From a virus: a stretch of DNA of 64,000 nt. Location of the stretch: positions 2,724-66,723 of IMG/VR virus record IMGVR_UViG_3300022841_000014; one strand, 5' to 3'. Below, one piece after another: positions 2,171-28,206 of this stretch. Positions within the stretch are counted from its first letter, which is position 1, and each line of letters begins with the position of its first letter. The position numbers were made by a program, and so were the translations under genes. Below the pieces are notes generated by a model. That model was given only the letters and a program-made list of their open reading frames with translations. It was not told the origin of the DNA and did not search any database.

Positions 2171-4099
2171 ATGAAAAAACAATGAAGTAACAAAACTTAC
2201 ATATACGATTTAGAAACATATAAAGATTTATTTCTTGCTGTGTTTAAGAATATAGAAACTAATGAGTTTTGAAGATTTGAAATTAACAAATACAAAACAG
2301 ACATAGTAAAACTTTACGAGTTTCTTAATCAAAGAAACATGACTTTAATAGGTTATAATAATGTTAATTTTGACTACCCAGTCTTACATAACACTATACT
2401 TAAAGTTAAAAGAAAATGAACATCTGAAGAGATATACAATGAAGCACAAAATGTAATACAAGCTGATTATTCTGCAATATGGGATAATCAAGTTAAGATA
2501 TCTCAAGTAGATCTTTTTAGGATTAAACATTACGATAACAAAGCACGTAGAACGTCTCTTAAATGGCTTGAATATGCCATGAGAATGGATAATATACGTG
2601 ATCTTCCTTATCCACCAGACAGTGATCTTACAAAAGACATGATGTCTGAAATAATATCTTATTGTGACCATGATGTAAATGCTACACATTTATTTTATAA
2701 CAAATGTCAAAAAGAAATTGAGCTAAGGCTTCAGTTATCTGAGGAATATGGTTTAAATTTAATAAATGCTAATGACCCTAAAATTGGTAGTGAAATATTC
2801 TTAGATTTATTATCTAAAGAAATGAATATTAAAAAGAAAGAATTATCAGAGAAAAGAACTTATAGAAAATCAGTTATATTTAATGATATAATACTTGACT
2901 ATATTAAGTTTGATTCAAAAGAAATGCAAAAAGTTCTTTTTAATTTTAAATCATATGTATCAAAAGATACTAAAGGTGAATTTAAATTTAGTGGTAAGAT
3001 AGGTAACATTATTAATGATTTTGGTCAAGGTGGTATACATGGTTGTACTAAACCTGGAGTGTATGTAAGTGATAAAACTCATGTAATCATAGACATTGAC
3101 GTAGCAAGTTACTATCCTAACTTAGCTATTAACAATGAATTTAGACCAAAACACTTAGGAGAAGCTTTTAGTAAAATTTATAAAAGTATATATGAATTAA
3201 GAAAGACATTTCCTAAATCAGATCCACGTAATGCAGCTTGTAAATTAATGCTCAATGGTTCATTTGGTAAAATGAATGATATGTATAGTTTTTTGTATGA
3301 TCCCAAATGTCTGTTAAGTATTACTCTTAATGGTCAATTACTTTTAGCTATGCTTATGGAGAAAATATTTAAACATGTTAATGATATTACATTTTTGCAA
3401 TCAAACACTGACGGTTTTACTTTTATTATAAAGAGAACTGATGTAGATTACATGAAAAAGATAGTTACATCCTGGGAAAATAAAACTAATCTTGTAATGG
3501 AATATGCTGTTTATGACAAAATGATAATACGAGATGTTAATAATTACATGAGTATTACTGATACAGGTTATACTAAATACAAAGGTGCTTTTGAAATGGA
3601 TAGGGATTATAACAAAAATCATAGTAAAAGAATTGTAGCTATTGCTTTAGCTAATTATTTTGCAAACAATGTTAGTCCTGAAGATACTATTTATAATCAT
3701 TTGTCAAATCATTCAACATCAGAGAATTATACTTTTTGTGAAAACTACGGTATTCACGATTTTTGCTTAGGTGTAAAGATGACAGGTGATAATAAACTCG
3801 TTGAAAGGATTGTAAAAGACTATGAGCCAGAAGATCATGAATTAGGTAAGGTAACTAGATATTTCGTTTCTAACGATGGTGAAATGCTTGTTAAAAAGTT
3901 ACCACCATTGCCTGATAAAATACCTACATTACAAATAAACATATTTGGTGAGATAGATATGGGTGATAGAGAATCAAGTATTGAAGCTGGTTATAAAACA
4001 ACAGTTTTTAATCAGTATTACAACAATGATAATTATAATATAGATTATAACTATTATTTAAGAGAAGTTAATAAAATTATTAACGTAATTAAAAATTAA
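2171..4099 (+). CDS. polB: family B DNA polymerase (642 aa with TGA readthrough at 2183, 2270, 2417)
   Basis: Exonuclease motifs YDLET and IGYNNVNFD lie in frame upstream of the track ORF; polymerase motifs DIDVASYYPN, KLMLNGSFGK, NTDG. Confidence 0.92.
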
Positions 4100-4114
4100 A
4101 AATAATAAAAAAAA

Positions 4115-4612
4115 ATGATTAAATCAGTAAATATAAATAAACAAAACATAAAATTTTCAAATAATAAAGGTCAATTTTTGACTTTAAATAAATCTACAGA
4201 TAATTGTAAATTTGGAACATTAGAAAATTTAAATTGTGCAAGTAGAGATTTAAAAAACCTTGTTGATACTGTATTAAAAACAGAAAAATCAATGAGAGTT
4301 TTAATGGCTCATGTTAATCAAAAATCATTAGTAGAAAAACTTAAAAAAGATTTTGAAATAATATCTGTTTTAGAATTACCTATTGGATATAATATTGGTA
4401 AACAATATCATGTTCACATTAGAAACACTTATGATGAAACTTATAAACAAAGATTTATAAGAGAAGGTGCTAAATCTTCTCTTAACTCTATGCTAGACGT
4501 TAATACTAAAATTTTAATGGAAACTTTTAAAGCAGGTAAAGCTGACAAAACTTACCACACAACAAACGGATTTAAAAAATTCATAAAAAAAAACAATTAT
4601 GGAACTATGTAA
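4115..4612 (+). CDS. hypothetical protein (probable paralog of 29644 and 31464 ORFs)
   Basis: STDNCKFGTLEN resembles PTKNCQWGSIFN and PFDNCQNVSISN. Confidence 0.7.
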   Translation: MIKSVNINKQNIKFSNNKGQFLTLNKSTDNCKFGTLENLNCASRDLKNLVDTVLKTEKSMRVLMAHVNQKSLVEKLKKDFEIISVLELPIGYNIGKQYHVHIRNTYDETYKQRFIREGAKSSLNSMLDVNTKILMETFKAGKADKTYHTTNGFKKFIKKNNYGTM

Positions 4613-4751
4613 TATATGCTTAGGAGAAAAACAATATATGAAAGAAAAAGCTAACAAAGGTGGTTTTGTACATATTAATTGTAATATTTGTGATGATGAA
4701 GGTTTAATAGATAACAATTTGTTTATAGACAAAACAGATATGGATTATTAA
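4599..4751 (+). CDS. small zinc-finger protein (50 aa)
   Basis: MELCNICLG...NCNICDDEG, two CxxC motifs; below the ORF-track cutoff. Confidence 0.6.
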   Translation: MELCNICLGEKQYMKEKANKGGFVHINCNICDDEGLIDNNLFIDKTDMDY

Positions 4752-4780
4752 ATCTAAACAAAATTAATGAAAATATTAAA

Positions 4781-5368
4781 ATGAAATTATGAGATATAGA
4801 AAATTTATCATTTAATTTTAAAGACATTAAGTTACTTGATATAAATATTAATCAATTAATGTGTATTATAAAAATATATTTAAGCTCAAATAAAATTTAT
4901 TTTGATTATGACATGAACAAAGCTTACATTAATGACCTTATTGAAAAACAGTATTTAATATCTGATTCAAAAGGATTGTATCTTAGAGATAAAGGTAAGA
5001 AAGTTATTAAAGTATTTGTCAAAATAAAAGAAGATAGTAGAAAAGAAGAAGAATTAGATAATCAATTAAAAACATATAGATCTTTATTTAAAGATATAAA
5101 AGTTGGTTCAATGGGTTCAGGTCTTTCTACTAGAAAAAAATTACAAAGGTTTATGGATTCAAATCCAGACGTAACTTTTGATGAATTAATAAATGCAACT
5201 GAAATGTATATTGAAAATTTCAATGGTAATTTTAAATTCATACAAAGAGCAGATTATTTTATATACAAACAGAATTACAAAGGAGAAGAAACTTCTAATT
5301 TGGAAATATGGGTAGAGCAATCTAAAAAAGAACCAGAAAATTCAGATTGGACAACAGAATTAAAATAA
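4781..5368 (+). CDS. putative replication-associated protein (initiator/helicase-loader-like), TGA at codon 4 (4790)
   Basis: ATG AAA TTA TGA GAT... continues in frame into the 4859 ORF; lies upstream of DnaB. Function is inferred only. Confidence 0.6.
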
Positions 5369-7137: not shown

Positions 7138-8268
7138 ATGCAAAAAGAAGAATTAGACAATTATGGTAGATTAAAAAAACATTTATGAAATAGAAGAGAA
7201 AATATAATATCTGGAAAAGCAAATTGTATACCCTTTGGACTACCTCGTTTTGAAGAAGTGGTTCCTGGTATACAACAAGGTAAAATGACTCTTGTTACAG
7301 CTAGTACTAAAGTTGGTAAAACAAAAGTTACAGATAATTTGTATATGTATAATCCTATTAAATGAAAGTTACAAAATCCTGAAAGTCCTATTACATTAAA
7401 AATAGTGTATTTTACATTAGAAATGTCTGAACGTCAAAAAATGACACAGGCTGCTTGTAATAGGCTTTTTACTACATCAAAAGGTAATATAAGAATAGAT
7501 CCTGTTAAATTACAATCTACTCGTGGTGCTGTTAGTGAAGAAATACTGTTAGAAATAGAAAAACAAAATGAATATTTTGAATTTTTTAATAAAACTGTAA
7601 CATTTATAGACAACATTAAACATGCTTACGGTATAATGAGGTATATGGATGATTACGCTAAGGCTAATGGTACTACTTATTATAAAACAGTTACTTTTAA
7701 AGATAATAAAACAGGTGAATCTAAAGATCATGAAGTATTTGATTATTACAAAGCAGATAGACCTGACGAGTATGTTATTATAATAGTTGATCACATATCT
7801 CTTTTATATCCAAAAAAAGGTAGTACTTTACATCAAGAAATATCAGATCTTTCTTCTAAATATTTTATACAACTTAGAAATAGATATAATTATAGTCCAG
7901 TTATTGTGCAGCAACAATCCGCAGCTTCAGAATCTCTTGATAATATGAAAGCTAACAGGTTAAAACCTAGTTTAGTAGATATAGCTGATAATAAGTTAAC
8001 TAGTAGAGATGTAGATTTAGCATTAGGTTTATTTAGTCCTTACAGACATGGTATAAGAAAATATCCTGAAAAAGACGGCTATAACATTGAAAAATTCAAA
8101 GACAATATAAGATTTTTAGAAATTTTAGCATGTAGAGATGGTGGTGGTAACACTGTTTGCCCTTTGTATTTTGATGGTGCAGTTGATTTTTTTAAAGAAT
8201 TACCTTTAACTAATGATGAAAAAGGAATAAAATCAGTATATAATATGCTTAACAAAATTAGAGAATAA
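7138..8268 (+). CDS. dnaB: DnaB-like replicative helicase (TGA readthrough at 7186, 7363)
   Basis: Walker A ASTKVGKT lies between the two TGAs; YFTLEM, IIVDHISLL and VIVQQQ motifs follow. Confidence 0.9.
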
Positions 8269-8333: not shown

Positions 8334-8726
8334 ATGTTTACAAAAGAATTATTAGGAAAAGTGTTTAATACAACTAGTATTGAAAATGAAAAAACAACTG
8401 AAAGTTTTTTTCAAAATAATGATAATATACTTGAAAAAGGTAGTATAAGACATACTATTACAGAAAATGATGACGACGACATTCCAGTTACTATAATAAC
8501 TAGAGAATACAGTGCTTTTGATGGTAGTCTTAATTACAAAGAACAAGTAACAGTTGCTTCAAGTGTTTTTAATGAAAGAAAAAAAATGATTGTTGGTGAT
8601 ATGAATATATTATCAAGAGTAAATTATTTAAAAAGACAAATTAGACATTATTCTGAAAAAGAAAGTTATGAAATATGTCAAGGAATGAAAGTTGAACTTG
8701 AAAAACTAGAAGAATTATTAAAATAA
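8334..8726 (+). CDS. hypothetical protein, UVR-like coiled-coil C-terminus
   Basis: C-terminal LKRQI...ESYEICQGMKVELEKL. Confidence 0.6.
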   Translation: MFTKELLGKVFNTTSIENEKTTESFFQNNDNILEKGSIRHTITENDDDDIPVTIITREYSAFDGSLNYKEQVTVASSVFNERKKMIVGDMNILSRVNYLKRQIRHYSEKESYEICQGMKVELEKLEELLK

Positions 8727-8732
8727 AAACAA

Positions 8733-9812
8733 ATGGCAAAAATAGATATTGAATATCACAAATTATTGCAAAAAATAAGAAATGAAGGTTTCAGATATGA
8801 AGATCCTAATCGCAAGAATGTATTTAGGTATCAGATACCAAGTTACACGTTGGTACACAATTTTGATGATGGTTTTCCCGCAATAACTACTAAAAAGTTA
8901 TATTGGAAAGGAGTTGTTGGAGAATTATTATGGTTTTTACGTGGTGATACTAATATTAAATATCTTGTAGATAATGGTATTAATATTTGGAATAAAGATG
9001 CTTATAACTGGTTAATTAAAAATTATTCTATATCTGAAGGGGAAACTCCAACTATTAAAGAAATATTTAAAAACCCAGACAGTTGGAATTTAGATTTAGG
9101 TAGAGTATATGGTGCTCAATGGAGAAATTGGTTTATTTCAGATAATAATCCAGGAGGTTTAGATCAAATATCCAATCTTATAAAAGGATTAAAAGAAACA
9201 CCTATGGGTACAAAGCACATAGTTACAGCTTGGAATCCTGCTGAGTTAGATGATATGGCTTTACCACCTTGTCATTGGAGTTTTGAAATATTAGTTGAAC
9301 CTTTAAATTGGTTTGAAAGAACTGGTTTAGTTAAACCTTCTGATCATATTAAACAAAAATTAAATGTAAAAGCTATTAAAAATGGCAAATGTAGTAAAGA
9401 ATTAGATATGGAATATTATAATTCTTTAGATACACCTAAATACCAATTTACTTTAAAATGGCATCAACGTTCAGTTGATACATTCTTAGGTTTACCTTTT
9501 AATATTGCAAGTTATGCATTATTAGCAAAGCTAATTGGTAAAATGACTAATATGATACCTAAAGGTATTATTGGAGATTTGTCTAATGTACATATTTATG
9601 AAGCACATATAGATGCTGTTAAAGAACAGTTATCTAGAGATGTTAATAAATATAATAATTGTGATTTAACTATTAGTACTAAAGCACAAGCTGAATTAAT
9701 AGATGGATTAAAATATATTAATAATAATAATATAGAAATTAAAGATCTTATGTTATTAGATTACGAATCATACCCATCTATAAAAGCAGAAATGCTAGCT
9801 TATAACAAATAA
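8733..9812 (+). CDS. thyA: thymidylate synthase
   Basis: TTKK, ELLWFLRG, YGAQWR, MALPPCH, QRSVDTFLGLPFN, HIY motifs. Confidence 0.97.
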   Translation: MAKIDIEYHKLLQKIRNEGFRYEDPNRKNVFRYQIPSYTLVHNFDDGFPAITTKKLYWKGVVGELLWFLRGDTNIKYLVDNGINIWNKDAYNWLIKNYSISEGETPTIKEIFKNPDSWNLDLGRVYGAQWRNWFISDNNPGGLDQISNLIKGLKETPMGTKHIVTAWNPAELDDMALPPCHWSFEILVEPLNWFERTGLVKPSDHIKQKLNVKAIKNGKCSKELDMEYYNSLDTPKYQFTLKWHQRSVDTFLGLPFNIASYALLAKLIGKMTNMIPKGIIGDLSNVHIYEAHIDAVKEQLSRDVNKYNNCDLTISTKAQAELIDGLKYINNNNIEIKDLMLLDYESYPSIKAEMLAYNK

Positions 9813-10068
9813 TATGAAAAAAAATAGATTAACATTTTTAGAAATTATACTTTTAAGTAGTATTCTTATTATAATGTTTTTAACATCTTTAACAGTTTCT
9901 TTTTATATTTGTAAATTAATTTTAGAATAATGAATCAAAATAAAAATAGCAGTCAATTAAACACTGTAAGAGATACTTTAAATGAAAAAGTAAGTAAATA
10001 TTCTATTGTTGGAAACAGTAAAAGAGTATTTTGGAATGCTAAACGTAGATTTAGAACTATTTAATTAA

Positions 10069-10091
10069 ATAAGTCAACAGTGTCAACTTAA
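10069..10091 (+). promoter_or_regulatory. 23-nt repeated upstream element, copy 1
   Basis: ATAAGTCAACAGTGTCAACTTAA, ending 17 nt before ATG 10109. Confidence 0.65.
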
Positions 10092-10108
10092 CTTATTAAT
10101 TTAAATAT

Positions 10109-10783
10109 ATGGCACATTTAGTATTTATAGTTGGTGAATCAGGTACTGGTAAATCAACAAGTCTCAGGAAATTAAATCCTGATGAAACCGTAATCATTAA
10201 TACGGATCAAAAAGCACTACCTTTTAGAAAGTACAAAGACGTTTATAATCAAGAAAAAGGAAATTATATGCAGTCTAGTAATATAAAAGATGTGGTTAAA
10301 TCACTTTCTGAAGCTAACGCTAATGAAAGCATTAAAACTGTAATTGTAGATACATGGTCTCGTATTATGACAGATTCTGTCATGAGCAATGAATTTAACA
10401 ATGCTAAGAATGGTATGCAAGCATGGGCTAACATGGCAAGAAATCAATACAAATTGATTAATTTTGTTAATGATACCATGCGTGACGACATTATTGTTTA
10501 TTTTTTTTGTCATCCAGAAAAAATATATGATGATATGGGAACCTTAAATCAAAGAATTGCAGTTCAAGGTAAGCAATTAGCTAAATTAAGCCCTGAAAGC
10601 TTTAGTAGTATGGTGTTATTTACAGATGTAAAAAAAGAGCCAGGAAAACCAGCTAGATATTTGTTTAGAACACAAAACGATGCTACAGATACTTGCAAGA
10701 CACCAATGGATATGTTTCAAGAAGAACATGTTGAAAATGATCTTGTAGAAGTAAATAAAGTAATTAGAGACTATTATGAGTAA
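10109..10783 (+). CDS. Sak4/AAA_24-like ATPase (ssDNA annealing)
   Basis: GESGTGKS Walker A, VIVDT Walker B, KTP motif; adjacent to SSB-like gene. Confidence 0.85.
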   Translation: MAHLVFIVGESGTGKSTSLRKLNPDETVIINTDQKALPFRKYKDVYNQEKGNYMQSSNIKDVVKSLSEANANESIKTVIVDTWSRIMTDSVMSNEFNNAKNGMQAWANMARNQYKLINFVNDTMRDDIIVYFFCHPEKIYDDMGTLNQRIAVQGKQLAKLSPESFSSMVLFTDVKKEPGKPARYLFRTQNDATDTCKTPMDMFQEEHVENDLVEVNKVIRDYYE

Positions 10784-10799
10784 TTATTAGTTTGTATGT

Positions 10800-10822
10800 A
10801 TAAGTCAACAATGTCAACTTAA
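10800..10822 (+). promoter_or_regulatory. 23-nt repeated upstream element, copy 2
   Basis: ATAAGTCAACAATGTCAACTTAA, ending 18 nt before ATG 10841. Confidence 0.65.
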
Positions 10823-10840
10823 TTTATATATATAAAAATA

Positions 10841-11452
10841 ATGATTGATTTAAATAGTTTTTCAGACAATGGTTCTGATGTAGTAATTTTTAACGAAGGT
10901 AATGCAGGTAAAGTAAATAATGTAGCAATTTCTGTTAAGAAAAAAAGTGCAGAAGACAATGCCAATGCACCTGATTATAAAATACATTACACACAAGAAA
11001 ATGGTTCTGATGTAAACGATGGTATTTATTACCCTCAAGATTCAGATAACAACCCAGCTTTTGTATTACAAAGGCTTGTTACAACGTTACACGCTGTAGA
11101 TGCAGAATCTATAGGTGTAGCTTTACCAACTCTTCCTAATTACCCAGCAGCTGTAGATTTTCTAATGAAGAAAATTAACGAAGCAGGTAAAAAAGGACAT
11201 AAAGTAAATGTATTTGTTAATTATGGAACACAAGGTTATCCTAAGAGTTTTTTAACTGTTAGAAAAATTAATTTTGTAGAACCTTTTAACAAAGATGAAA
11301 ATACAACTAGATTAAAACCAGCTAAAAGCACAGACGCAAATAAGTTAATGTATAATGACTTAATGTCTAGACCTCAGCCAGATAATGATGACGATGCTTT
11401 TGACACAGAGTCTACTGACTCTAAAGACGAAGCTAGTAATGATTTTTTCTAG
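10841..11452 (+). CDS. putative single-stranded DNA-binding protein
   Basis: Acidic tail ending DFF; position between Sak4-like ATPase and primase. Confidence 0.7.
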   Translation: MIDLNSFSDNGSDVVIFNEGNAGKVNNVAISVKKKSAEDNANAPDYKIHYTQENGSDVNDGIYYPQDSDNNPAFVLQRLVTTLHAVDAESIGVALPTLPNYPAAVDFLMKKINEAGKKGHKVNVFVNYGTQGYPKSFLTVRKINFVEPFNKDENTTRLKPAKSTDANKLMYNDLMSRPQPDNDDDAFDTESTDSKDEASNDFF

Positions 11453-11466
11453 TAGGTCATAAATAT

Positions 11467-11489
11467 AGAGGGGGAAACCCCTCTTTTTT
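11467..11489 (+). terminator. intrinsic terminator
   Basis: AGAGGGG-GAAA-CCCCTCT followed by a T tract. Confidence 0.85.
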
Positions 11490-11502
11490 ATTAAAAACAA
11501 AA

Positions 11503-12540
11503 ATGGTAGATTTAAATAAACACGTATCTAAACCATTAGTAACTAAAGCGGTATTAGATATAGAATTAAAAGACAGTGAAATATATTGTTTTTACATGAA
11601 TACTGATAGTATTAACTTAAATTCAGCTATGAGTTCACCTCTAAGAGAAGATCCAACACCATCGTTTGGTTTTTTTTTAAATAAAAGAGGTAATATTATA
11701 TATAATGATTTTGTAAATGGAGGTGGTGATTGTTATAAATTCGTAAAAGAATTTTTTGCATATTCACAATGGTATGATGTTTACAGTCAAATTGCAATTG
11801 ATTTTAATTTAGATAAAAAGTACAAATGTAGTAATAATTTATTAAACAATGAAAATAAAAATAAAGTAAAGTATGACGCTAACATACAAATACTTAAAAA
11901 AAAGAAATGTAAAATATCAGTAAACAAAAGAATTTGGGAAGTTCACGATTTAAATTATTGGAATAAATTTAACATAAATAAAGTTATGTTAATAAAATAC
12001 AGAGTTTTTCCATTAAAATATATTTTTATAAATAATAAACCTATAGCAGCAGATAAAAATGCATATGTTTATATAGAAAGTAAAGATGGTTTAATAACAC
12101 ATAAGATATATCAACCTTATAGTAAATTTAAATGGATAACAGACAATGATAATTCAGTATGGCAAGGTTGGGAACAACTTTCTTTAAATGGTAACATTTT
12201 AATCATAACAAAATCACTTAAAGATGTAATGTCTATAAAAAGTACAACAGGTTATGATGCAATAGCTTTACAAAATGAAAAAGCTAAACCAAAAGATAAT
12301 ATAATTGAACAATTAAAAGGTAGATTTACTAAAATTTTTATATTATTTGATAATGATTATGATAAAAAAGAAAACTGGGGTCAAATAAACGCCAAAGAAA
12401 TATCTAGAAATCATATGATTACTAATATAGTAATAAATAAAGAATATAAATCTAAGGATTTTTCTGATTTAGTTAATAATCATGGTAAAGATTTAGCAAA
12501 AGAAATATTAAATTCTAAAATAAATAAAAAAGATGAGTAA
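11503..12540 (+). CDS. dnaG: DNA primase (TOPRIM)
   Basis: SPLREDPTPSF, ITKSLKDVM, FDND and KDFSD motifs typical of crAss-like primases. Confidence 0.88.
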   Translation: MVDLNKHVSKPLVTKAVLDIELKDSEIYCFYMNTDSINLNSAMSSPLREDPTPSFGFFLNKRGNIIYNDFVNGGGDCYKFVKEFFAYSQWYDVYSQIAIDFNLDKKYKCSNNLLNNENKNKVKYDANIQILKKKKCKISVNKRIWEVHDLNYWNKFNINKVMLIKYRVFPLKYIFINNKPIAADKNAYVYIESKDGLITHKIYQPYSKFKWITDNDNSVWQGWEQLSLNGNILIITKSLKDVMSIKSTTGYDAIALQNEKAKPKDNIIEQLKGRFTKIFILFDNDYDKKENWGQINAKEISRNHMITNIVINKEYKSKDFSDLVNNHGKDLAKEILNSKINKKDE

Positions 12541-12919
12541 AAATATAAACATTAGTGTTTACGGAACATTAAGAACTGGTTATGGAAATCACAGAGTATT
12601 GGGTAATTCAAAATTAATTGGTGCTGGATGGACTAAAAATAAATATAAATTGACAGCAAATGGTATTCCTTTTGTTAATCCTAACGAGCAAGTTAGTAAA
12701 ATTAGAGTAGAAGTTTATTCAGTTACACCTGATCAATTACCTACAGTAGATAGATTAGAAGGTTATGATCCTAGAGATCATGAAGGTTCTTGGTATAAAA
12801 GAACACCTATTGAAATAACTCTTGATACAGGAGAAGATGTAAAAGCTTCTATTTACTTTGGTGAAAACGAAGGTAAAACATTAATTGAATCTGGAGATTA
12901 TGCCGATTATAGAAACTAA
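12533..12919 (+). CDS. gamma-glutamylcyclotransferase (AIG2-like)
   Basis: VYGTLR...N-H, VEVY, DRLEG, Y-R motifs. Confidence 0.9.
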   Translation: MSKNINISVYGTLRTGYGNHRVLGNSKLIGAGWTKNKYKLTANGIPFVNPNEQVSKIRVEVYSVTPDQLPTVDRLEGYDPRDHEGSWYKRTPIEITLDTGEDVKASIYFGENEGKTLIESGDYADYRN

Positions 12920-14235: not shown

Positions 14236-14237
14236 AA

Positions 14238-15636: not shown

Positions 15637-15637
15637 T

Positions 15638-18572: not shown

Positions 18573-18598
18573 AGTTAACATTAAAAAAATAAAATGAA

Positions 18599-20113
18599 AT
18601 GATAGTTAAAACTTACAAAGGTAAGAATTTAGAAAAAAGTAAATGTCGTAAAATACAAAATGATTATTACGAAATAGGTGATAACAACATAGAAGGAAGT
18701 GGTGGATGTTACAAAGTAAACGGTAGATATCATAGATTTAATAATGGTCTTATTGAATTTGATCATGAAAATAAATCTTACGTTTTAGTAAATAAACAAC
18801 TTTTAACAAGGGGTATAGTAAGTATAAATAAAGATGATTCTTTTATATTAGGATTTTTTTCACCTAATCCTACTAAAAACATAAAAGTTGTTGTAGACAA
18901 TTTTAATGTAACTAATTGTATAGATGAAGAAACATTAGGTAGTAAGTATTCTGAACATTTAAATACAGGTAATTTTTATAAAAAAGATGAAATGTCAAAA
19001 TCTTCTTTTAATAAAATAGGAAAAGCACCTGTAGATAAAAATTCGTTAAACTACGATAGTAGATTTGTAACTAAAATGATTGAAAAATCATATAATCAGT
19101 ATTACAAAGTTCCTAGTGTTAAAAATCAAATGGTAGAAGAATTAGGTATTTTATTAGAAAAAAATAAAATAACTTTTGGTCTTGAATTTGAAACTTCAAA
19201 AGGTTATTTACCTGATAGATTGTGTTATAAACACGGTATAGTAGCATTAAGAGATGGTAGTATATCAGGTTTAGAATATGTTACAGTTCCTTTAGATGGT
19301 AGAAAAGGTTTATATAATGTAATGGAAATATGTAAATTATTAAAAAAAAGAACTGATTATGATTTTACATGTGCTTTACATTTACATTTAGGAGGTCTTA
19401 AAAGAGATGTTGACAATATTTTATCTATAAATAATATAGCAAATATGCTAGAAGAAGATATGTATTCTTTACAACCATTGTCTAAAAAAATTTCTACTGA
19501 TTACGGTAAAAATAAAAATTACAGTGGTCCAATGAATTGTACTCCTTTAAGTATTATGATGTCTGACACAGATAAACCTTTACCTAAACTTAAAAAATTA
19601 GCTTTTGATAGTTTATTTAAGCATTTATCTGGTGGATATTCATTTTCAGATTTTGGTAATGATTTAGAAAAAATACAAAATCATCCTAAAGACCCTAATG
19701 GTACATCTAAATGGAACATTAGAAGTCGTTACGTATGGTTTAACATGATTCCTATTATATTTACTAACAAACAAACTGTAGAATTTAGACAACATAATAA
19801 TACTTTTGACTTTTTTAAAATTTACAATTTTATGTTAAGTTCAGCAATAATGGTTATGGCAGCTAACAAATTAGAAGATAAATTTAATAATCCTAAATTT
19901 TTAAAATCTTTTAGTAAATTAAATAGTAAATATGAAACATTAGTAAAACTTACTAAAAGTGAATTCCCAGAACTTACAGATTCTCTTTGTGAAAATAATA
20001 TAAAATATTTTAAAGAAAGAGTTAAAGTTATGAAAAAAATGAATATTAATGACCCTAAAGGTCTTAATGAACATAAATTTTATGATGATTTTACAAATAC
20101 TGTAGATGAATAA
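18599..20113 (+). CDS. putative amidoligase (Amidoligase_2-like)
   Basis: FGLEFET, DGSI..LEYVT, CALHLHLG, TVEFRQH. Confidence 0.88.
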   Translation: MIVKTYKGKNLEKSKCRKIQNDYYEIGDNNIEGSGGCYKVNGRYHRFNNGLIEFDHENKSYVLVNKQLLTRGIVSINKDDSFILGFFSPNPTKNIKVVVDNFNVTNCIDEETLGSKYSEHLNTGNFYKKDEMSKSSFNKIGKAPVDKNSLNYDSRFVTKMIEKSYNQYYKVPSVKNQMVEELGILLEKNKITFGLEFETSKGYLPDRLCYKHGIVALRDGSISGLEYVTVPLDGRKGLYNVMEICKLLKKRTDYDFTCALHLHLGGLKRDVDNILSINNIANMLEEDMYSLQPLSKKISTDYGKNKNYSGPMNCTPLSIMMSDTDKPLPKLKKLAFDSLFKHLSGGYSFSDFGNDLEKIQNHPKDPNGTSKWNIRSRYVWFNMIPIIFTNKQTVEFRQHNNTFDFFKIYNFMLSSAIMVMAANKLEDKFNNPKFLKSFSKLNSKYETLVKLTKSEFPELTDSLCENNIKYFKERVKVMKKMNINDPKGLNEHKFYDDFTNTVDE

Positions 20114-20810
20114 GGATATTATTAATTTTAAAAAAACTTTTGGTAACTGGGTTAATGATGAAAGTTTTCTATATATAATTAAATCAGATTATTTTAGAAA
20201 ACTTATTGTTTTTTTAAACCAAGTTTATAATAAAAGACAAATATTTCCTTTAAAAAAAGATATATTTAAAGTTTTTAGATATGTCCCTTATAATAATATT
20301 AAAGTGGTGATATTAGGAGATTCTCCTTACCCTAATGAATCAGCAAACGGCTTTGCTGTAGCAAATACAGTTGATACACTTAGGGTGTCACCTTCTTTAT
20401 TTAAAATAAGAGAATGTATAGAAAAAACTACTAATACTTTAATTGTTGATTTTGATGTAACTTTGCAAAATTGGGCTTTACAAAATGTTTTATTGTTAAA
20501 TACATCATTAACTATTCAAGCAGGTATGGTAAATCCACACAAGCATATTTGGGATGAATTTATTAAAGTTACTATTAATACTATTATAGATAATAATCCA
20601 GGTGTAATATTTTGTTTATGGGGAAACGATGTTATGAGAACTTTTCACAAAGTTGTTCCAGAAAACAAATTAAAATTTTGTTATGCTTTAAAATGTATAC
20701 ATCCTGAACTTGCTGCAAAACGAAATGAAGAATGGAATTGTAATCATTTTAAACAAATTAACGAATTAATAAAAGAAAACAATGGAAAAGAATTTTGTAT
20801 TAAATGGTAA
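20106..20810 (+). CDS. ung: uracil-DNA glycosylase (family 1)
   Basis: KVVILGDSPY, ANGFA, SPSL, WALQNVLLLN, LWG, HP. Confidence 0.92.
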   Translation: MNKDIINFKKTFGNWVNDESFLYIIKSDYFRKLIVFLNQVYNKRQIFPLKKDIFKVFRYVPYNNIKVVILGDSPYPNESANGFAVANTVDTLRVSPSLFKIRECIEKTTNTLIVDFDVTLQNWALQNVLLLNTSLTIQAGMVNPHKHIWDEFIKVTINTIIDNNPGVIFCLWGNDVMRTFHKVVPENKLKFCYALKCIHPELAAKRNEEWNCNHFKQINELIKENNGKEFCIKW

Positions 20811-21134
20811 TAAGTTAATTGCTGAATTTATGGGTTGGGAAAAAAAGGATTAGTTTATACTACTCCTCACAATAGACCTTATTTAGCTGTAGATAGTAAC
20901 ATGTATGAAACAAATAAAGCTAGACTAGATGATTTTAAATTTCATGAATCATGGGATTGGTTAATGCCTATAATTCAAAAAATTGAAAGGTTAGATACAC
21001 TAGATAAAGATAAGGATTTCAATAAACAATTGGATAGAGTTATATGTAAATTTATTTATACAGATATTAAAACAATGTATAAAGCAGTAATTAAATTTAT
21101 TAAATGGTATAATGAAAACAACAAAAGTAACTAG
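20782..21134 (+). CDS. phage protein (NKLIAEFMG...SWDWLMP type) split by a -1 frameshift at A-AAA-AAG (20841-20847)
   Basis: Frame from 20782 gives MEKNFVLNGNKLIAEFMGWEKKD*; the -1 frame carries KFHESWDWLMPIIQKIE. Confidence 0.65.
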
Positions 21135-21264: not shown

Positions 21265-21642
21265 ATGATGTTATTTTGCGATGGCTCAGTGCCATCAAGT
21301 AAAAATGGACGCAGATGAACTGGTAGACATTTTATAGCTTCTAAAGCTACTAAAAAATGAAAAACAAACACTGCAGAATGGTGGAAAGATAATAAAGATG
21401 CTTTCCACCAGATGATAGAAGGTAAAGAAAAACCTTATAAAATAGGGGTACATTTCATAAGAGGTACTCATCATAAATATGATTGGGTAAATCCTATTCA
21501 AACAATTCAAGATGAGATGACTCATGCTGGATGGATAGATGATGACAACATTACAGAAATGGTTCCCTTTCCTTTTAAAATTAAAGGAAAATACACTGGG
21601 TATAATAAAGAAAAACCTGGTTTTTATTTAAAAGTATATTAA
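21265..21642 (+). CDS. RusA-like Holliday junction resolvase (TGA readthrough at 21316, 21358)
   Basis: VPSSKNGRR*TGRHFIASK in frame with YDWVNP.Q..QD...GWIDDDN. Confidence 0.8.
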
Positions 21643-22987: not shown

Positions 22988-23563
22988 ATGAAAAAAAATA
23001 TTAGTCATGGTTATGTTTTACCTATAATAACACAATGAGTTGATATAAATTCAAATATACAATCTCATATAATAAACACTTATTTATTTTCTAATTTAGA
23101 TTCTAAAATAGGTAAGTTTTATATTGAATGTAATTTTAATTACAGAGATGTTAAATTTACAGAAAAAGAAAATATACTTACTGACAATGATGTATATGTA
23201 AAATCTTATTCTGTTAATGCTAATGTTATTTATGAATATAAAATACCAGAAGAATATCATGAAGATATACTTAAATTGATAAAAGGTAATTATTCTAAAC
23301 TTTCAGATGATTACAAAATGCAAATTAAGAAATACTGAATAGAATTATATGGTAAAATACCAGGTTTTGTAAATTCAACTATTAAAAGATTTGATGATAT
23401 ATTTAACAAAAATGACAAGTTAAGAGAAAAAATGGAAAAAGATTTAAATGTCAAATTATCTAAAAATAGTGAACTTGGTCAATTGTTAAATATTAACAAT
23501 GAAACTTATGAGTTTCAAAACAATAAACAAATAAATTTAGAAAATATTTCTGATATATTCTAA
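22988..23563 (+). CDS. hypothetical protein (191 aa with TGA readthrough at 23036, 23336); absent from the ORF track
   Basis: ATG 22988 to TAA 23563 open except for two TGAs; fills the gap exactly. Confidence 0.75.
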
Positions 23564-23591: not shown

Positions 23592-23894
23592 ATGGAATAT
23601 AGTAAATTACAACCGTTAGTAGTAAAATGAGGAGCAGACAAAGGTATTCTTGAAAAAGCAACACCTATGGCTCAGGCTATCAAAACATTAGAGGAAGTTA
23701 ATGAACTTCTTGATGCAATAAACAAAAATGATAAAGAAGAAATCAATGACGCCCTTGGTGATATTTTGGTAACAATCATTTTACAAGCAGAATTACAAAA
23801 TGTAAATTTAACAGATTGCCTTGAAGGTGCTTATAATATTATAAGTAAAAGAACTGGTAAAATGCAAAATGGAGTATTTGTAAAAGATGCTTAA
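23592..23894 (+). CDS. MazG-like nucleotide pyrophosphohydrolase (TGA readthrough at 23628)
   Basis: VVK*GADKGIL..ATP.AQ..KTLEEV.E...DALGD; TGA at the family's N-terminal Trp. Confidence 0.88.
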
Positions 23895-23916: not shown

Positions 23917-24099
23917 ATGAATAAAATTAAAACAAACACTGGATTTAAAGGAATTACTAAAAGAACAAACACTGGTAATTTTGAAATTAGAGTCAATGTA
24001 AAAGATAATTCTAAAGCAACAAGCTTTTATGTAGGTATAGGAAAAACTCTACAAGAAGCAGTAACAAGAAGAAATAACTTTATTAAAAATCTAATTTAA
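23917..24099 (+). CDS. stand-alone AP2-like DNA-binding protein
   Basis: NTGFKGI...FEIRV...YVG..KTLQEAV..RN. Confidence 0.6.
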   Translation: MNKIKTNTGFKGITKRTNTGNFEIRVNVKDNSKATSFYVGIGKTLQEAVTRRNNFIKNLI

Positions 24100-25073
24100 T
24101 GAATATATTTAAAAAAAGAAAAAACGTGTTACCTTATGAGTATCCCGAATTACTTAAATATAAAAATGCAATAAGGCATTCATACTGAATTCATACTGAG
24201 TTTAATATTACAGAAGACATTTCTGATTTTATGACTAAAGTTACAGACAGTCAACGTGAAGCAATCAAGCGATCCATGCTTGCAATTGCTCAGATAGAAG
24301 TTAACGTGAAAGCGTTTTGGGGTGATCTGTATAAACGTCTACCAAAATATGAAATTCAATCAGTAGGAGCTACATTTAGTGAGAGTGAAGCTAGGCACTT
24401 TGATGCTTATAAACACTTACTTGAAGTTCTTGGCTTAGAAAGTGAATTTGAAACAATTACCGATGTACCAGCTATTAAAGATAGGATTTCTTATCTTAGT
24501 AAATACCTTGATGGAACTAGAAGTAAAAGTGATAAGATGTATACAAAATCTATCCTTTTATTTAGTCTATTTATAGAACACGTTTCTTTATTTAGCCAGT
24601 TTCTGATAATGATGTCATTTAATAAAGAATTAAATTTATTTAAAGGAGTGTCAAATATAGTAGAAGCAACCAGCAAGGAAGAAGATGTACATGGTAATTT
24701 TGGTATTGAATTAATTAATATTATTAAAAAAGAAAACCCTGAATGGTTTGATAAAGAATTTGAAGAAATAATTAAATCTGCATGCGTTAAGGCTCTTGAA
24801 GCCGAGTGTAAAGTTTTGGATTGGATTTTTGAAAAAGGTGAACTAGATTTCTTATCAAAGGAAACAATTACTGAATTTATTAAAAACAGGTTTAATAACA
24901 GTTTAGAAAGCATTGGAATGAGTAAAGCTTTTGAGGTCCAAACTCAAAAGTTAGAAAGTACAATGTGGTTTGACGTTGAAATTAAATCAACCAAAGAAAG
25001 TGATTTCTTTTATAAAAAAAGTATTGATTATAACAAAAAATCAGAAAGTATAACAGAGGACGACTTGTTCTAA
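24099..25073 (+). CDS. nrdB: class I ribonucleotide reductase beta subunit (TGA readthrough at 24186)
   Basis: AIRHSY*IHTEFN; metal-ligand motifs EARH, IEHVSLF, EEDVH; DFF. Confidence 0.93.
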
Positions 25074-25126: not shown

Positions 25127-26761
25127 ATGAATAAAACAGATAGATATTATTGGCTTAACGAAGAGTCAAGAAAATTTCTTTCTCGTGGATACTTAAGAGA
25201 AGGGGTATCTCCAGAGCAAAGAATTAAAGACATAGCAAATCACGCAGAAAGAATACTAGGAGTAAAAGGCTGAGCTGAAAAATTTGAAAACTATATGGCT
25301 TTAGGTTATTATAGTTTGTCAACTCCTGTATGGTGTAATTTTGGATATGAAAAAACTTTACCTATAAGTTGTTACGGATCTGACATTGATGATACGATGG
25401 ATAGTATTCTAAATGGAGCAAGAGAAATAGGTATGATGTCTAAATACGGTGGTGGAACATCCATGTACTTAGGTAACATTAGAAAACGCGGTTCGTCAAT
25501 CTCAGGTGGTGGGAATGCGGATGGACCTGTTCACTATGCAAAAATCTATGATACAATTATAGATAAATGTAAACAAGGTGAATCAAGAAGAGGAGCTTGT
25601 GCTTTATACCTACCAGTAGAGCATGAAGACATAATGGAGTTCCTTAGAATTGGTGACGAAGGAAATCCAATTCAGAATCTTCAATTTGGAGTCACGGTCA
25701 CGGATGCGTGGATGAATTCTATGAAAGAAAGTGATACTGATAAAAGAAAAATATGGGCTAAAATTATACAGAAACGTAAAGATTTTGGTTTTCCATATAT
25801 TATGTTTAAAGACAATTCCAATAACAATAGTCCATACAAAGAATTAGGACTAGATATTAAAGCTAGTAATCTTTGTTCGGAAATACAGCTACCACAGGAC
25901 AGTTACAACAGTTTTGTTTGTTGTTTAGGTAGTATCAATTTACTTCATTGGAAAGAAATTGAGAAGACTGATGCTGTAGAAACTTATATTCAATTCCTTA
26001 ATGCAGTAATAGATGACTTTATCATAAAATCTGAGCACCTTCCTGGTATGAAGAGAGCTTGGAGATTTGCTAAAAACCATAGAGCCATCGGGCTTGGCGT
26101 ACTAGGTTGGCATTCATTTCTGCAAAGTGAATTATTAGAAGTTGATAGTATAAAGGCTAAATATTGGAATAATGTAATATTTAAAGAAATAAATGAAAGA
26201 TCACAAAAAGCAAGTAAATGGTGTCATGATTTTTTAGGAAAAAAATCTATACGAGAAGGATATGCTAATACAACGGTAATGGCAATTGCACCAACTAAAA
26301 GCTCATCATATATATTAGGACAGGTTAGTATGGGTATTGAACCAATAAAATCTAATTATTTTATAAAAGATTTAGCTAAAGCTAAAACTGTATACAAGAA
26401 CGAAATGTTGAGAGCGCAACTCCAACAGTACAATCTTGATACACCAGAAACATGGAATAGTATTCTTGATAATGATGGTAGTGTTCAACATTTAGATTTT
26501 CCTACAAAGGAAGTATTTAAATCGTTTATTGAAATTTCACCAAGAGAACTTGTGTTACAAGCAGCACAAAGACAAAAATATATTGATCAATCACAATCAT
26601 TAAATTTAATGATACACCCTTCAGTACCAGCAAAAGAGATAAATAAACTCTATATGTATGCTTGGGAATCAGGAGTAAAGACCTTGTATTATCAATTTAG
26701 TCAAAGCGCAGCACAAAGTTTTGCAAGAGAAATAAATGACTGTGATTCATGTCATAGTTAA
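25127..26761 (+). CDS. nrdA: class I ribonucleotide reductase alpha subunit (TGA readthrough at 25271)
   Basis: PISC, GGGTS, RRGA, SNLCSEI, IAPT, IDQSQS, KTLYY, C-terminal CxxC. Confidence 0.93.
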
Positions 26762-26808
26762 TAAATTAAATTAGCTTAAAGGCTGGGTGGGATGGTGGTA
26801 ATTAGATT

Positions 26809-26982
26809 ATGGAAAAAAAGGAAATAGTTGAAAAACTAAAACAACACAATTTATTATGGATAGATTTTTACAAATGGGTAACGAATCAAAAATCAGAATC
26901 AGAAAAAGTTTTGTATTATATTCACGATGTAGATCAATTTATAGCTTTAAAAACAGTAGGCTTAAACAGTTACTGAAATTAA
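26809..26982 (+). CDS. small hypothetical protein (TGA at 26974, two codons before TAA)
   Basis: ATG 26809 ... TAC TGA AAT TAA. Confidence 0.5.
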
Positions 26983-27018
26983 TTATAAATTTTCATATTA
27001 AAATTAATAAGCATAAAC

Positions 27019-28206
27019 ATGGATAAAAGAGATAAAATCCAAAAAGAAGCTTTAATAAAATGAATTGTTAATAAAAAAGGAACTGTTTGTCTTGCAACAT
27101 CATTAGGTAAAATGTTTGTATTTTTACATGCATTACATACGATGAATGTTAATGATGATATTCATTTGTTTTTAGCAGAAACAACAGCAAGAAAAATAGA
27201 TTTACTAAATTCTATTAAAGCTTTTGATGAAAAATTTAATAAAGAAACAATGAATACTTATAATCTTAAGTTTTATTGTTATCAAACAGTTTACAAATGA
27301 AGAAATAAATCATTTGGATTAGTAGGTTGTGACGAAATTCACATGCAACTTACTTCTTCTTATGTGCAGTTTCATAAATTTAACAAAGCAAAAGCAGTTT
27401 TAGGTTTATCTGCTACTATTGATAGAACAGTTGAATACGAAGATGGAGGTATAATTGTTACTAAAGGTCAATATTTAGATAAATATGCACCTGTATGTTA
27501 CACGTATAGCTTAGATAAAGCTCGTATAAACGATATTAATAGAGAAGTGGACATACATATCATTTACAATGAATTAGACATTGTAAAGAAGTCTGTTAAG
27601 AGCGGTAATAAAGCTAAACCTTTTTATCAAACAGAAGAAGAATCTTACAAATACTGAAATAAAAAATTAGGACAAAGCATGTTTGCTGGTCCTGAAAAAA
27701 AAGATTTATTTGCTAGATTAGCTATTGGAGGTAGAAGTAGATTACTATATAATTTACCTAGTAAAACTGTATTAATTAATAAATTATTACCTCATCTTAA
27801 TAATGTATTAATTTTTGGTAATTCTATTGATAGTTTATTAACTGTTACTAATAATGTTATTTCTTCACGTAATAATGAAAAGAAAAATAACTTTATTAGA
27901 AATCAGTTTGAAACAGGTAAGGAAAATGTAATTGCTAGTTTTAAAATGCTAGAACAAGGTGCTACTATTCAAGGTATGGAAAACCTTATTATGATGTCTT
28001 ATTATAGTAAATCATTAGGTGCTGTACAAAAAATGGGTAGACATAGACGTATAGGTGACACTAAAGGTAAAGCTTTTATAATAGTTACAAAAAACACACA
28101 AGAAGAAAAATGGTTAGCTAAATTTATAGGAAATTTTAAATCTTATAATATTATTAATCATGAAAATGTAAATGAATGCATAAAATACTTAAAAAATGAA
28201 AATTAA
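27019..28206 (+). CDS. superfamily 2 (DExH) helicase (TGA readthrough at 27061, 27298, 27655)
   Basis: Three track ORFs share one frame; motifs ATSLGK, DEIH, LSAT, LEQG, QKMGRHRR. Confidence 0.9.

What the first reader, a model, noticed from the sequence alone, without database searches (positions are those of the whole stretch)
2171..28206. TGA(Trp) readthrough concentrated in replication/dNTP genes, mostly near 5' ends: a candidate translational gate on phage DNA replication
Seen: 17 in-frame TGAs in ten genes: PolB (2183, 2270, 2417), 4781 ORF (4790), DnaB (7186, 7363), RusA-like (21316, 21358), 22988 ORF (23036, 23336), MazG (23628), NrdB (24186), NrdA (25271), 26809 ORF (26974), SF2 helicase (27061, 27298, 27655). 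Essential motifs (Exo I, Walker A, DEIH) are cut off if TGA is a stop. NrdB HSY*IHTEF is the conserved R2 Trp, and GRR*TG and K*GADKG also sit at Trp positions. Later Trp codons in the same genes are mostly TGG. ThyA, primase, UNG, the amidoligase cluster and about 32 kb of late genes have no in-frame TGA, and the gene ends checked are TAA/TAG. Known: code 4/15 recoding occurs in crAss-like phages but is reported as enriched in late structural/lysis genes. Inference: the pattern here is inverted and 5'-biased, so replication may depend on a suppressor tRNA, RF2 inhibition or host state.
Basis: partly seen in the sequence, partly recalled or inferred. Interest (0 to 1): 0.92.

Follow-up and report, generated by a model that had tools for sequence, protein, structure and literature searches.

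The report
Stop-codon tryptophans in phage replication genes
A salt-water crAss-like phage spells a few tryptophans near the start of its DNA-replication genes with the stop codon TGA, and never does so in its virion genes; this is the reverse of the published pattern, and how the codon is read is still unknown.

Summary
Observation confirmed. All 17 in-frame TGAs lie at the stated coordinates in ten + strand genes. No gene ends in TGA. The 15 minus-strand virion and RNA-polymerase genes have 0 TGA against 62 TGG.

TGA means Trp. It swaps with TGG in relatives, and NrdB codon 30 is Trp (TGG) in 80 of 80 bacterial homologues.

The pattern is not chance:
- Strand bias, P=7e-4.
- 5' bias, P=1.5e-4.
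- A purine follows every TGA, in five genomes.
- Gene-class effect, P=6e-6.

It is conserved. Against a complete 100-kb relative, ordinary synonymous codons are scrambled (phi -0.03 to 0.22), but the TGA/TGG choice is kept (phi 0.78).

By homology with Cellulophaga phage phi14:2, the TGA genes are a subset of the early module that the injected virion RNA polymerase transcribes. Published recoded phages put such codons mainly in late genes.

I found no UCA tRNA, release factor or TrpRS. The only tRNA-like gene has a conserved 76-85-nt insert in its anticodon loop and no UCA anticodon.

Best reading: suppression that depends on sequence context and competes with termination. A deliberate "gate" is plausible but not shown; tolerated drift at cheap sites fits equally.

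The scan noted similar patterns before in other crAss-like phages.

The parts
1..318 (+). 3' part of a phage tmRNA gene. The whole gene is G000:C1:2595-3041, that is window -128..318.
   Evidence: Rfam RF00023 scores 58.1 bits (gathering score 47), E 2.4e-21. ARAGORN reads the tag as ATVKLAMAA. Homologues lie at the same place in L033 and L034. phi14:2 has a match of 46.0 bits.
493..646 (+). tRNA-like gene with an insert in its anticodon loop (85 nt between the stem strands; ARAGORN -i reads a 78-nt intron). It is the only tRNA-shaped gene in this phage group and has no UCA anticodon.
   Evidence: ARAGORN -i calls it Leu(CAA) with a 78-nt intron. Homologues occur in G001, L033 and L034. RNAalifold finds both-sided changes at five pairs of the acceptor stem. 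It is absent from phi14:2.
2144..4099 (+). Family B DNA polymerase. TGA at 2183, 2270 and 2417 (codons 14, 43, 92); TGG at codons 113, 141 and 444.
   Evidence: Codon 92 is TGA in all five genomes and TGG in phi14:2 and L032.
4781..5368 (+). Homologue of phi14:2 g022, the 'putative replisome organizer'. TGA at 4790 (codon 4).
   Evidence: Codon 4 is TGA in W, G002, L033, G001 and L034.
7138..8268 (+). DnaB-like helicase. TGA at 7186 and 7363 (codons 17, 76). It has no TGG.
8334..21134 (+). Early block without TGA: ThyX-like, Sak4, SSB-like, primase, GGCT, ATP-grasp, two GATase genes, amidoligases and UDG. All of its Trp codons are TGG.
21265..21642 (+). RusA-like resolvase. TGA at 21316 and 21358 (codons 18, 32); TGG at codons 39, 40, 74 and 90.
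   Evidence: Both sites are TGA in G002 and G001 and TGG in phi14:2.
22988..23563 (+). 191-aa protein, homologue of phi14:2 g047. TGA at 23036 and 23336 (codons 17, 117).
   Evidence: Codon 117 is TGG in G001, G002 and phi14:2, which shows that TGA and TGG interchange.
23592..23894 (+). MazG-like pyrophosphatase. TGA at 23628 (codon 13).
24099..25073 (+). Ribonucleotide reductase small subunit. TGA at 24186 (codon 30).
   Evidence: The codon aligns with Trp in PDB 6sf4 and with TGG Trp in 80 of 80 GTDB homologues.
25127..26761 (+). Ribonucleotide reductase large subunit. TGA at 25271 (codon 49), with 11 TGG. Codon 9 is TGG and is followed by C.
26809..26982 (+). 57-aa ORF. TGA at 26974 (codon 56), two codons before TAA.
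   Evidence: The codon aligns with TGG in G001, whose own TGA is at codon 23, so it is a sense codon and not a stop.
27019..28206 (+). SF2/SNF2-family helicase. TGA at 27061, 27298 and 27655 (codons 15, 94, 213).
   Evidence: All three are TGG Trp in phi14:2.
28196..32087 (+). End of the rightward module, without TGA.
32146..63893 (-). Leftward block: 15 ORFs, most matching phi14:2 g065-g075 and g080, including the virion RNA polymerase, ejected proteins and tail proteins. 0 TGA and 62 TGG; all stops here are TAA.
   Evidence: These are the middle and late classes in phi14:2.

Best explanation
What it is. The window is about two thirds of a crAss-like phage of roughly 97-100 kb. It is colinear with Cellulophaga phage phi14:2 (Steigviridae) and comes from salt-lake water; a relative comes from a Tara ocean-survey contig.

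What it does. In this phage and its relatives, UGA is translated as tryptophan, but only at a few Trp positions:
- mostly within the first 100 or so codons;
- in about ten genes of the early, rightward module (PolB, replisome organizer, DnaB, RusA, MazG, NrdA, NrdB, SF2 helicase and two unknowns);
- always in the context (mostly A or C)-TGA-purine.

Every other Trp codon is TGG, including all those in the virion and RNA-polymerase genes. TGA has been purged as a stop.

Mechanism I think most likely. UGA is suppressed in competition with release factor 2 in a standard-code Bacteroidota host. An agent that I could not identify, made or induced early in infection, provides the suppression. Because readthrough can fail, TGA survives only where the context is good and a failure is cheap. 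The result is that replisome and dNTP proteins are throttled or delayed relative to the other early genes, although by analogy with phi14:2 the same injected RNA polymerase transcribes them all.

Shown: TGA means Trp; the placement; the context rule; conservation across synonymous saturation; the lack of a standard suppressor toolkit.

Inferred: competition with RF2; a standard-code host; the throttle or timer effect. Whether the placement is selected for that effect is open.
For: TGA means Trp.
- TGA and TGG swap at aligned Trp columns. Against G001: 8 TGA/TGA, 3 TGA/TGG, 1 TGG/TGA, 64 TGG/TGG. Against G002: 5, 1, 1, 32.
- 8 of 13 alignable sites are TGG Trp in phi14:2.
- NrdB codon 30 is TGG Trp in 80/80 bacterial homologues.

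Selection on codon identity.
- At conserved residues between the window and G001, the nine other two-fold amino acids give phi -0.03 to 0.22. Trp gives phi 0.78, P=7.6e-8.

Context.
- A purine follows every TGA: 17/17, 12/12, 6/6, 12/12 and 5/5 in five genomes, counting sites gained in single lineages.
- T before the codon is depleted and C is enriched.
- From memory, not from any call: purines at +4 favour nonsense suppression over termination in E. coli.

Gene class, beyond position and context.
- Among Trp codons at index 100 or less that are followed by a purine: 15 TGA / 6 TGG in the ten genes against 0 / 16 in the other + strand genes, P=6e-6.

Whole-genome pattern.
- In the complete relative G001, 45 minus-strand ORFs hold 0 TGA and 143 TGG by my sum of the rows.

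TGA stops.
- 0/62 here and 0-4/107 in G001, against 11/107 in phi14:2 and 3/21 in L032.
- Two first-expressed small ORFs of G001 look as if they end in TGA.

Timing.
- In phi14:2 the whole replicative rightward module is the early class, transcribed by virion RNA polymerase gp66 (passages read).

Literature.
- Recoded TGA/TAG codons are reported mainly in late, structural and lysis genes (passages read).
Against: - No decoder was found. The window and the complete G001 have no tRNA with a UCA anticodon, no RF-1-domain protein and no TrpRS.
- The tRNA-like gene offers no consistent UCA under any simple splice. ARAGORN reads CAA, AAA, TAT and CTT in the four copies.
- The host is unknown, so a host that already reads UGA as Trp is not excluded.
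- A gate is not needed to explain the data. If about 85% A at permissive sites is the neutral equilibrium, 8 shared and 4 discordant sites is what drift would give (my arithmetic).
- TGA sites are no more often non-Trp in the outgroup than TGG sites are.
- The gene set is not functionally clean, and it shifts between relatives.
- No stimulatory structure lies downstream.
- There are no RNA or protein data.
Confidence: 0.5

Rival explanations
1. Tolerated drift, no gate. Some form of UGA suppression exists, but the placement is a by-product. AT mutation pressure turns TGG into TGA wherever failed readthrough costs least: the 5' end, a good context, genes needed in small amounts. Selection keeps TGG everywhere else.
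For: - The boundary between TGA and TGG differs by gene, as a cost that scales with position and expression would predict: RusA between codons 32 and 39, NrdB 30 and 74, NrdA 49 and 69, PolB 92 and 113, helicase beyond 213.
- Discordant sites (4 of 12 against G001) fit neutral turnover at permissive sites.
- TGA sites are ordinary Trp positions in phi14:2: 8/13 against 44/69 for TGG sites.
- The gene set drifts. L034 has TGA in the ThyX-like gene and in Sak4.
Against: - Sixteen early Trp codons in a purine context, in other + strand genes, are all TGG (P=6e-6). A strong factor specific to the gene is still needed.
- Every gene that has Trp in 21265-28206 carries at least one TGA.
- Expression levels are not known.
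Confidence: 0.3
2. The host itself reads UGA as Trp (code 4, no RF2). The phage needs no decoder. TGA is just a rare, slowly read synonym that highly expressed genes avoid.
For: - A complete relative has no suppressor tRNA, RF or TrpRS.
- TGA is essentially absent as a stop.
Against: - At 25% GC, TGA should dominate if it were a free synonym. Here it is 17 of 176 Trp codons, and 0 of 62 in virion genes.
- A strict purine at +4 and a bias at -1 point to competition with a release factor; this step is inference.
- Two first-expressed ORFs of G001 seem to end in TGA.
- The nearest cultured relative infects a flavobacterium.
- Among 80 bacterial NrdB homologues, none has an in-frame TGA.
Confidence: 0.15
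3. Natural leaky readthrough by the host's ordinary tRNA-Trp(CCA), with no phage factor. The TGAs act as fixed attenuators that set low levels of replication proteins.
For: - No decoder is encoded.
- A follows the codon in 13 of 17 cases.
Against: - PolB and the helicase carry three TGAs each. Readthrough of a few percent per site would leave almost no full-length protein.
- The purge of TGA stops across the whole genome argues for efficient suppression.
Confidence: 0.1
4. The codon is changed at the RNA level (A-to-I editing of UGA to UGI, read as UGG), or the TGAs are sequencing errors or pseudogene lesions.
For: Nothing positive. Editing cannot be excluded without RNA reads.
Against: - The same TGAs stand in independent assemblies and at up to 330x contig depth.
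- No conserved hairpin or motif surrounds the sites beyond the -1 and +4 bases.
- No deaminase was seen among the proteins I scanned. That was 30 protein scans covering 26 different window ORFs, not all of them.
Confidence: 0.03

Closest known systems
TGA-to-Trp (code 4) and TAG-to-Gln (code 15) recoded phages, including crAss-like ones (Yutin et al. 2021, PMC7886860; Borges et al. bioRxiv 10.1101/2021.08.26.457843; Zeta-group phage Lera, PMC12386605). I read passages of each.
   Same: - In-frame TGA at Trp positions of conserved genes.
- TGA depleted as a stop.
- A low-GC genome.
- Recoding confined to part of the genome.
- Both papers also note recoded genomes without a detectable suppressor tRNA.
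   Different: - There the recoded genes are mainly late, structural and lysis genes. Replication genes are standard or 'variably' recoded.
- Here the virion genes have no TGA at all, and only a subset of early replication genes is recoded.
- Here there is a 5' bias and a strict purine after the codon.
- A complete relative has no UCA tRNA, RF or TrpRS.
Cellulophaga phage phi14:2 (NC_021806; Crassvirales, Steigviridae, Akihdevirus)
   Same: - The gene order is colinear, from PolB to the virion RNA polymerase.
- Protein identities run from about 28% to 61%.
- A tmRNA-like gene lies upstream of PolB.
   Different: - phi14:2 uses the standard code. It has 11 TGA stops among 107 ORFs, and TGG at 8 of the 13 alignable sites.
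- It lacks the tRNA-like gene with the insert.
- Its NrdB is only 28% identical.
Natural UGA readthrough by tRNA-Trp that depends on the 3' neighbour base.
   Same: UGA is read as Trp, with a purine (mostly A) after the codon.
   Different: In those cases a single leaky stop at the end of a gene gives a minor extended product. Here there are up to three internal codons in front of essential motifs.

Membership tests
Stop-codon-recoded (TGA to Trp) phages | In-frame TGA at conserved Trp positions of essential genes | tested here: met
Stop-codon-recoded (TGA to Trp) phages | TGA avoided as a stop codon | tested here: met
   0/62 ORFs here against 11/107 in phi14:2, Fisher P=0.0076.
Stop-codon-recoded (TGA to Trp) phages | Phage-encoded suppressor tRNA(UCA). 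This is common but not universal: Borges et al. find it in 35% of TGA-recoded genomes. | tested here: not met
   ARAGORN, the Rfam tRNA model and my own T-arm and acceptor scan find none in the window or in the complete G001. The window's own genome is incomplete.
Stop-codon-recoded (TGA to Trp) phages | Recoded codons concentrated in late, structural and lysis genes | tested here: not met
   0 TGA / 62 TGG in the leftward block here, and 0 / 143 in G001. All TGAs are in the early rightward module.
Stop-codon-recoded (TGA to Trp) phages | A host that uses the standard code | not testable with these tools
   The host is unknown. The nearest cultured relative infects Cellulophaga. NrdB homologues are spread over Flavobacteriales, Patescibacteria and other groups.
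Phage of a code-4 host (Mycoplasma type) | TGA is the main Trp codon and occurs in all gene classes | tested here: not met
   17 TGA against 159 TGG, with none in the 15 minus-strand genes.
Crassvirales, phi14:2-like | Colinear replication module plus the giant virion RNA polymerase and its neighbours | tested here: met
   The capsid, portal and terminase genes lie outside this contig and I did not check them in it.
tRNA (Rfam RF00005), for the gene at 493-646 | Acceptor, D and T arms | tested here: met
   RNAalifold finds both-sided changes at five acceptor pairs across four homologues. The G001 copy scores 46.6 bits.
tRNA (Rfam RF00005), for the gene at 493-646 | A 7-nt anticodon loop and, for a UGA decoder, the anticodon UCA | tested here: not met
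   The loop holds a conserved insert of 76-85 nt. The predicted anticodons differ between copies (CAA, AAA, TAT, CTT). cmscan did not report the window's own copy.
tmRNA (Rfam RF00023) | Score above the curated threshold | tested here: met
   58.1 bits against 47.

The most novel reading that the evidence does not exclude
This branch of crAss-like phages changes the meaning of UGA in the infected cell without a conventional suppressor tRNA. The agent would be new. Candidates are the conserved tRNA-like RNA with a structured insert in its anticodon loop, which lies next to the phage tmRNA, or an early protein that disables RF2. The phage then uses 5'-proximal UGA codons as a translational checkpoint. 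The checkpoint splits one block of genes, all transcribed by the injected polymerase, into 'now' genes and 'only after the switch' replisome genes.
Probability: 0.25. Interest if true: 0.85.

Novelty: new variant of a known kind. Interest (0 to 1): 0.68.

Why it matters
Published work treats stop-codon recoding in phages as a way to hold back late and lysis genes until a phage suppressor tRNA is made. Here the same trick sits at the other end of the infection programme: in the replisome and dNTP genes, close to their starts, under a strict context rule.

The placement is kept across relatives whose ordinary silent sites are fully scrambled, and no known decoder is present. If the placement is functional, it is a translational timer inside a block of genes that phi14:2-type phages transcribe all at once. 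If it is not, it is still a clean natural case of how the cost of failed readthrough shapes where a recoded stop can live.

Either way it points to an unknown way of reading UGA. It also matters for annotation: gene callers that use code 11 cut PolB, DnaB, NrdA, NrdB and the helicase of these phages into pieces.

Tried and rejected
- **Alternative starts.** Starts downstream of the TGAs do not explain the pattern. In the translation, the PolB DLET motif, the DnaB GKT motif, and the helicase GKM and DEIH motifs lie between or just after the TGAs. The motif names are my own reading.
- **orf57 codon 56 as a true stop.** Rejected. It aligns with TGG in G001.
- **Downstream stimulatory structure.** The folding energy of the 60 nt after TGA does not differ from that after TGG (P=0.85).
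- **TGA sites as newly created Trp codons.** Not supported: 8/13 against 44/69.
- **The tRNA-like gene as a split tRNA(UCA).** I found no consistent UCA. Folding each copy alone gave weak z-scores of -2.4 and -2.2. tRNAs in IMG/VR with the same D and T arms but no insert are tRNA-Met(CAT) genes in two other contigs, which I did not relate to this phage. Pattern scans found only the copies I already had. My T-arm and acceptor scan found no second tRNA-shaped gene here.
- **Phage RF or TrpRS.** None.
- **Unknown small early proteins.** Pfam matched only the two GATase-like genes, plus one weak sub-threshold hit. PHROGs matched none of the ten sent.
- **Host from NrdA or NrdB.** The NrdA scan of genome contigs found nothing. 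NrdB homologues at 60-75% identity sit in many phyla, so they give no host.
- **RNA evidence.** No RNA holder was listed, so I could test neither splicing of the tRNA-like RNA nor editing.
- **Tools and records that were out of reach.** The records behind L033 and L034 are not held for whole-record searches.
- **Supplements.** They were closed. Supplementary Table 2 of the phi14:2 preprint, which gives per-gene timing and abundance, could tell whether the TGA-class orthologues differ from the other early genes. I did not see it.
- **Literature searches.** Searches turned up no report of TGA confined to the 5' ends of early replication genes. This covers only the held library.

Full report
**What is there.**
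The window is bases 2724-66723 of a 66,723-nt virus record with about 25% GC.

With TAA and TAG as the only stops, the + strand from 2144 to 28206 closes into full-length genes. There are 17 in-frame TGAs in ten genes, at exactly the reported coordinates. Pfam and PHROG profiles align across the TGAs: PolB residues 8-650, NrdB 3-322, NrdA 17-543, SF2 helicase 8-375, MazG 2-99.

No gene ends in TGA. The only two code-11 ORFs that end in TGA are fragments of the helicase.

The nearest named relative is Cellulophaga phage phi14:2, a member of the Crassvirales. The window is colinear with it, from PolB through the replisome organizer, DnaB, ThyX, Sak4, primase, the amidoligase cluster, UDG, RusA, the exonuclease, the RNR genes and the SNF2 helicase, to the virion RNA polymerase and tail genes.

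Four salt-lake metagenome runs hold the sequence.

**TGA is tryptophan.**
- In aligned Trp columns, TGA and TGG replace one another between this phage and its relatives. Examples are orf191 codon 117, helicase codon 213, orf57 codon 56 and RusA codon 90.
- In the standard-code phi14:2, 8 of the 13 alignable sites are TGG Trp.
- NrdB codon 30 aligns with Trp in the solved homologue 6sf4.
- NrdB codon 30 is TGG Trp in 80 of the 80 best bacterial homologues kept by the scan. None of the 80 has an in-frame TGA.

**It is not an error.**
- Single contigs of three runs match the window over 8301-28300 with no differing letter, at word depths of 37 to 330. These runs may be the source.
- Listed pieces of a fourth run cover four of the sites with no differing letter.
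- Independent assemblies of relatives carry the same TGAs.

**The placement is not random.**
- *Strand.* 17 TGA / 97 TGG on the + strand against 0 / 62 in the 15 minus-strand genes (P=7e-4).
- *Position.* The median codon index is 31 for TGA and 194 for TGG in the same genes (P=1.5e-4; shuffling labels within genes gives P=0.0026). In 8 of the 10 genes every TGA precedes every TGG.
- *Context.* A purine follows all 17 TGAs, against 107 of 159 TGGs (P=0.0035). T before the codon is rare (1/17 against 36/97) and C is enriched (5/17 against 5/97).
- *Gene class.* Among Trp codons at index 100 or less that are followed by a purine, the ten genes have 15 TGA and 6 TGG. The other + strand genes have 0 and 16 (P=6e-6).

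So there are two kinds of early gene. The split is not simply 'replication'. Primase, Sak4, the ThyX-like gene and UDG use TGG only, and the SSB-like gene has no Trp codon at all.

**Relatives.**
I fetched:
- a complete 100,482-nt relative with terminal repeats, G001;
- partial genomes G002, G003 and L031;
- two loci from 100-kb metagenome contigs, L033 and L034, the second from a Tara contig;
- a more distant partial genome, L032.

In G001 the 45 minus-strand ORFs hold 0 TGA and 143 TGG by my sum of the rows. Its TGAs lie in the same genes and mostly at the same codons as here:

| Gene and codon | Genomes with TGA |
|---|---|
| PolB 92 | 5 of 5 |
| Replisome organizer 4 | 5 of 5 |
| RusA 18 and 32 | 3 of 3 |
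| orf191 17 | 3 of 3 |
| MazG 13 | 3 of 3 |
| NrdB 30 | 3 of 3 |
| NrdA 49 | 2 of 2 |
| Helicase 15 and 94 | 2 of 2 |

Every TGA in all five genomes is followed by a purine. This holds for the sites gained in single lineages too.

phi14:2 uses TGA as a stop in 11 of 107 ORFs, and L032 in 3 of 21. So the recoding, and the loss of TGA stops, arose within this branch.

**Selection on the codon.**
At conserved residues between the window and G001, the choice between the two codons of Lys, Glu, Gln, Phe, Tyr, Asn, Asp, His and Cys is almost uncorrelated (phi -0.03 to 0.22). Silent sites are therefore saturated. The TGA/TGG choice has phi 0.78, P=7.6e-8.

This shows that TGA is not a free synonym of TGG. 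It does not by itself show that TGA is wanted. If TGG-to-TGA change is neutral at a few permissive sites and harmful elsewhere, AT pressure alone would keep those sites mostly TGA. The 8 shared and 4 discordant sites fit that too. TGA sites are Trp in phi14:2 as often as TGG sites are (8/13 against 44/69), so I see no sign that Trp codons were created to carry TGA.

**Timing.**
The phi14:2 preprint (passages read) states two things. The whole replicative rightward module is the early class and is transcribed by the injected virion RNA polymerase gp66. The leftward modules are middle and late and are transcribed by the host polymerase.

By homology, the TGA genes here are a subset of the early genes. 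Yutin 2021 and Borges 2021 (passages) and the Lera paper place recoded stops mainly in late, structural and lysis genes, with replication genes standard or variably recoded. The pattern here is the reverse. My four literature searches found no report of it.

**What reads UGA?**
- ARAGORN and the Rfam tRNA model find no ordinary tRNA in the window or in the complete G001.
- Neither genome has an RF-1 domain or a TrpRS.
- My own scan for a T arm plus an acceptor stem finds a single tRNA-shaped gene.

That gene lies at 493-646, just after a phage tmRNA. It has acceptor, D and T arms; five acceptor pairs show both-sided changes among four homologues. Its anticodon loop holds a conserved insert of 76-85 nt. 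The anticodon that ARAGORN predicts differs in every copy and is never UCA.

All four recoded relatives for which that region is held have this gene. phi14:2 lacks it. This is one clade, so the association is weak.

The strict -1 and +4 context, the avoidance of TGA in abundant virion genes, and two first-expressed ORFs of G001 that seem to stop at TGA make me favour suppression in competition with RF2 in a standard-code host. A code-4 host is not excluded.

**Verdict.**
The mechanism of decoding is open. The 'gate' is one of two readings that the data cannot separate.

Earlier notes of this scan describe the same kind of pattern in other crAss-like phages: e1-6044319 without a suppressor tRNA and e1-5887027 with one. 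So this is probably a wider habit of the group. I did not check those notes.

Noticed in passing
window 1-318 (whole gene G000:C1:2595-3041); L037 4031-4502: The phage encodes a tmRNA (58.1 bits, above the Rfam threshold). phi14:2 has a match of 46.0 bits, just under the 47-bit threshold (E 7e-16), between g005 and g006. This is one of two intergenic regions that the phi14:2 preprint reports as highly transcribed early RNAs of unknown function. The passages I read do not call it a tmRNA.
   Followed up: partly
window 493-646; L021 1500-1643 (-); L033 6295-6448; L034 2542-2694: A tRNA-like gene with a conserved, structured insert of 76-85 nt in the anticodon loop. The acceptor helix can extend to 9 bp, and the -1:73 pair covaries (A-U or G-C). 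The function is unknown.
   Followed up: partly
L022 503-552 (G000:C1:503-552, upstream of the window): A match to the type-P1 twister ribozyme: 43.6 bits, E 1.8e-7, below the gathering score of 67.2.
   Followed up: no
window 24099-26761: NrdB and NrdA are far more conserved among these phages (89-96% identity) than their neighbours (about 50-80%). NrdB is only 28% identical to that of phi14:2 but 60-75% identical to bacterial homologues from several phyla. This suggests the RNR genes were replaced by transfer.
   Followed up: partly
G001 (reverse orientation) 28396-28710 and 29187-29510; L034 2939-3331: Small ORFs at the start of the rightward module have TGA 3-17 codons before the next TAA or TAG. 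These look like true TGA stops in the first-expressed genes.
   Followed up: partly
G001 (reverse orientation) 34322-34975: G001 and L031 carry a 217-aa ORF directly in front of PolB that has no window homologue. It has an early TGA, in the translated stretch MKY*TINEIK. From its sequence I take it to be a GIY-YIG-type homing endonuclease; no profile search was run on it.
   Followed up: no
window 20839: Contigs of two runs (X1 at depth 124 and X4) have one extra A after 20839, at the start of the 99-aa ORF 20835-21134.
   Followed up: no
window 14238-15636: Two Peptidase_C26/GATase-like genes lie inside the amidoligase cluster. G001 and G002 have them; phi14:2 does not.
   Followed up: no
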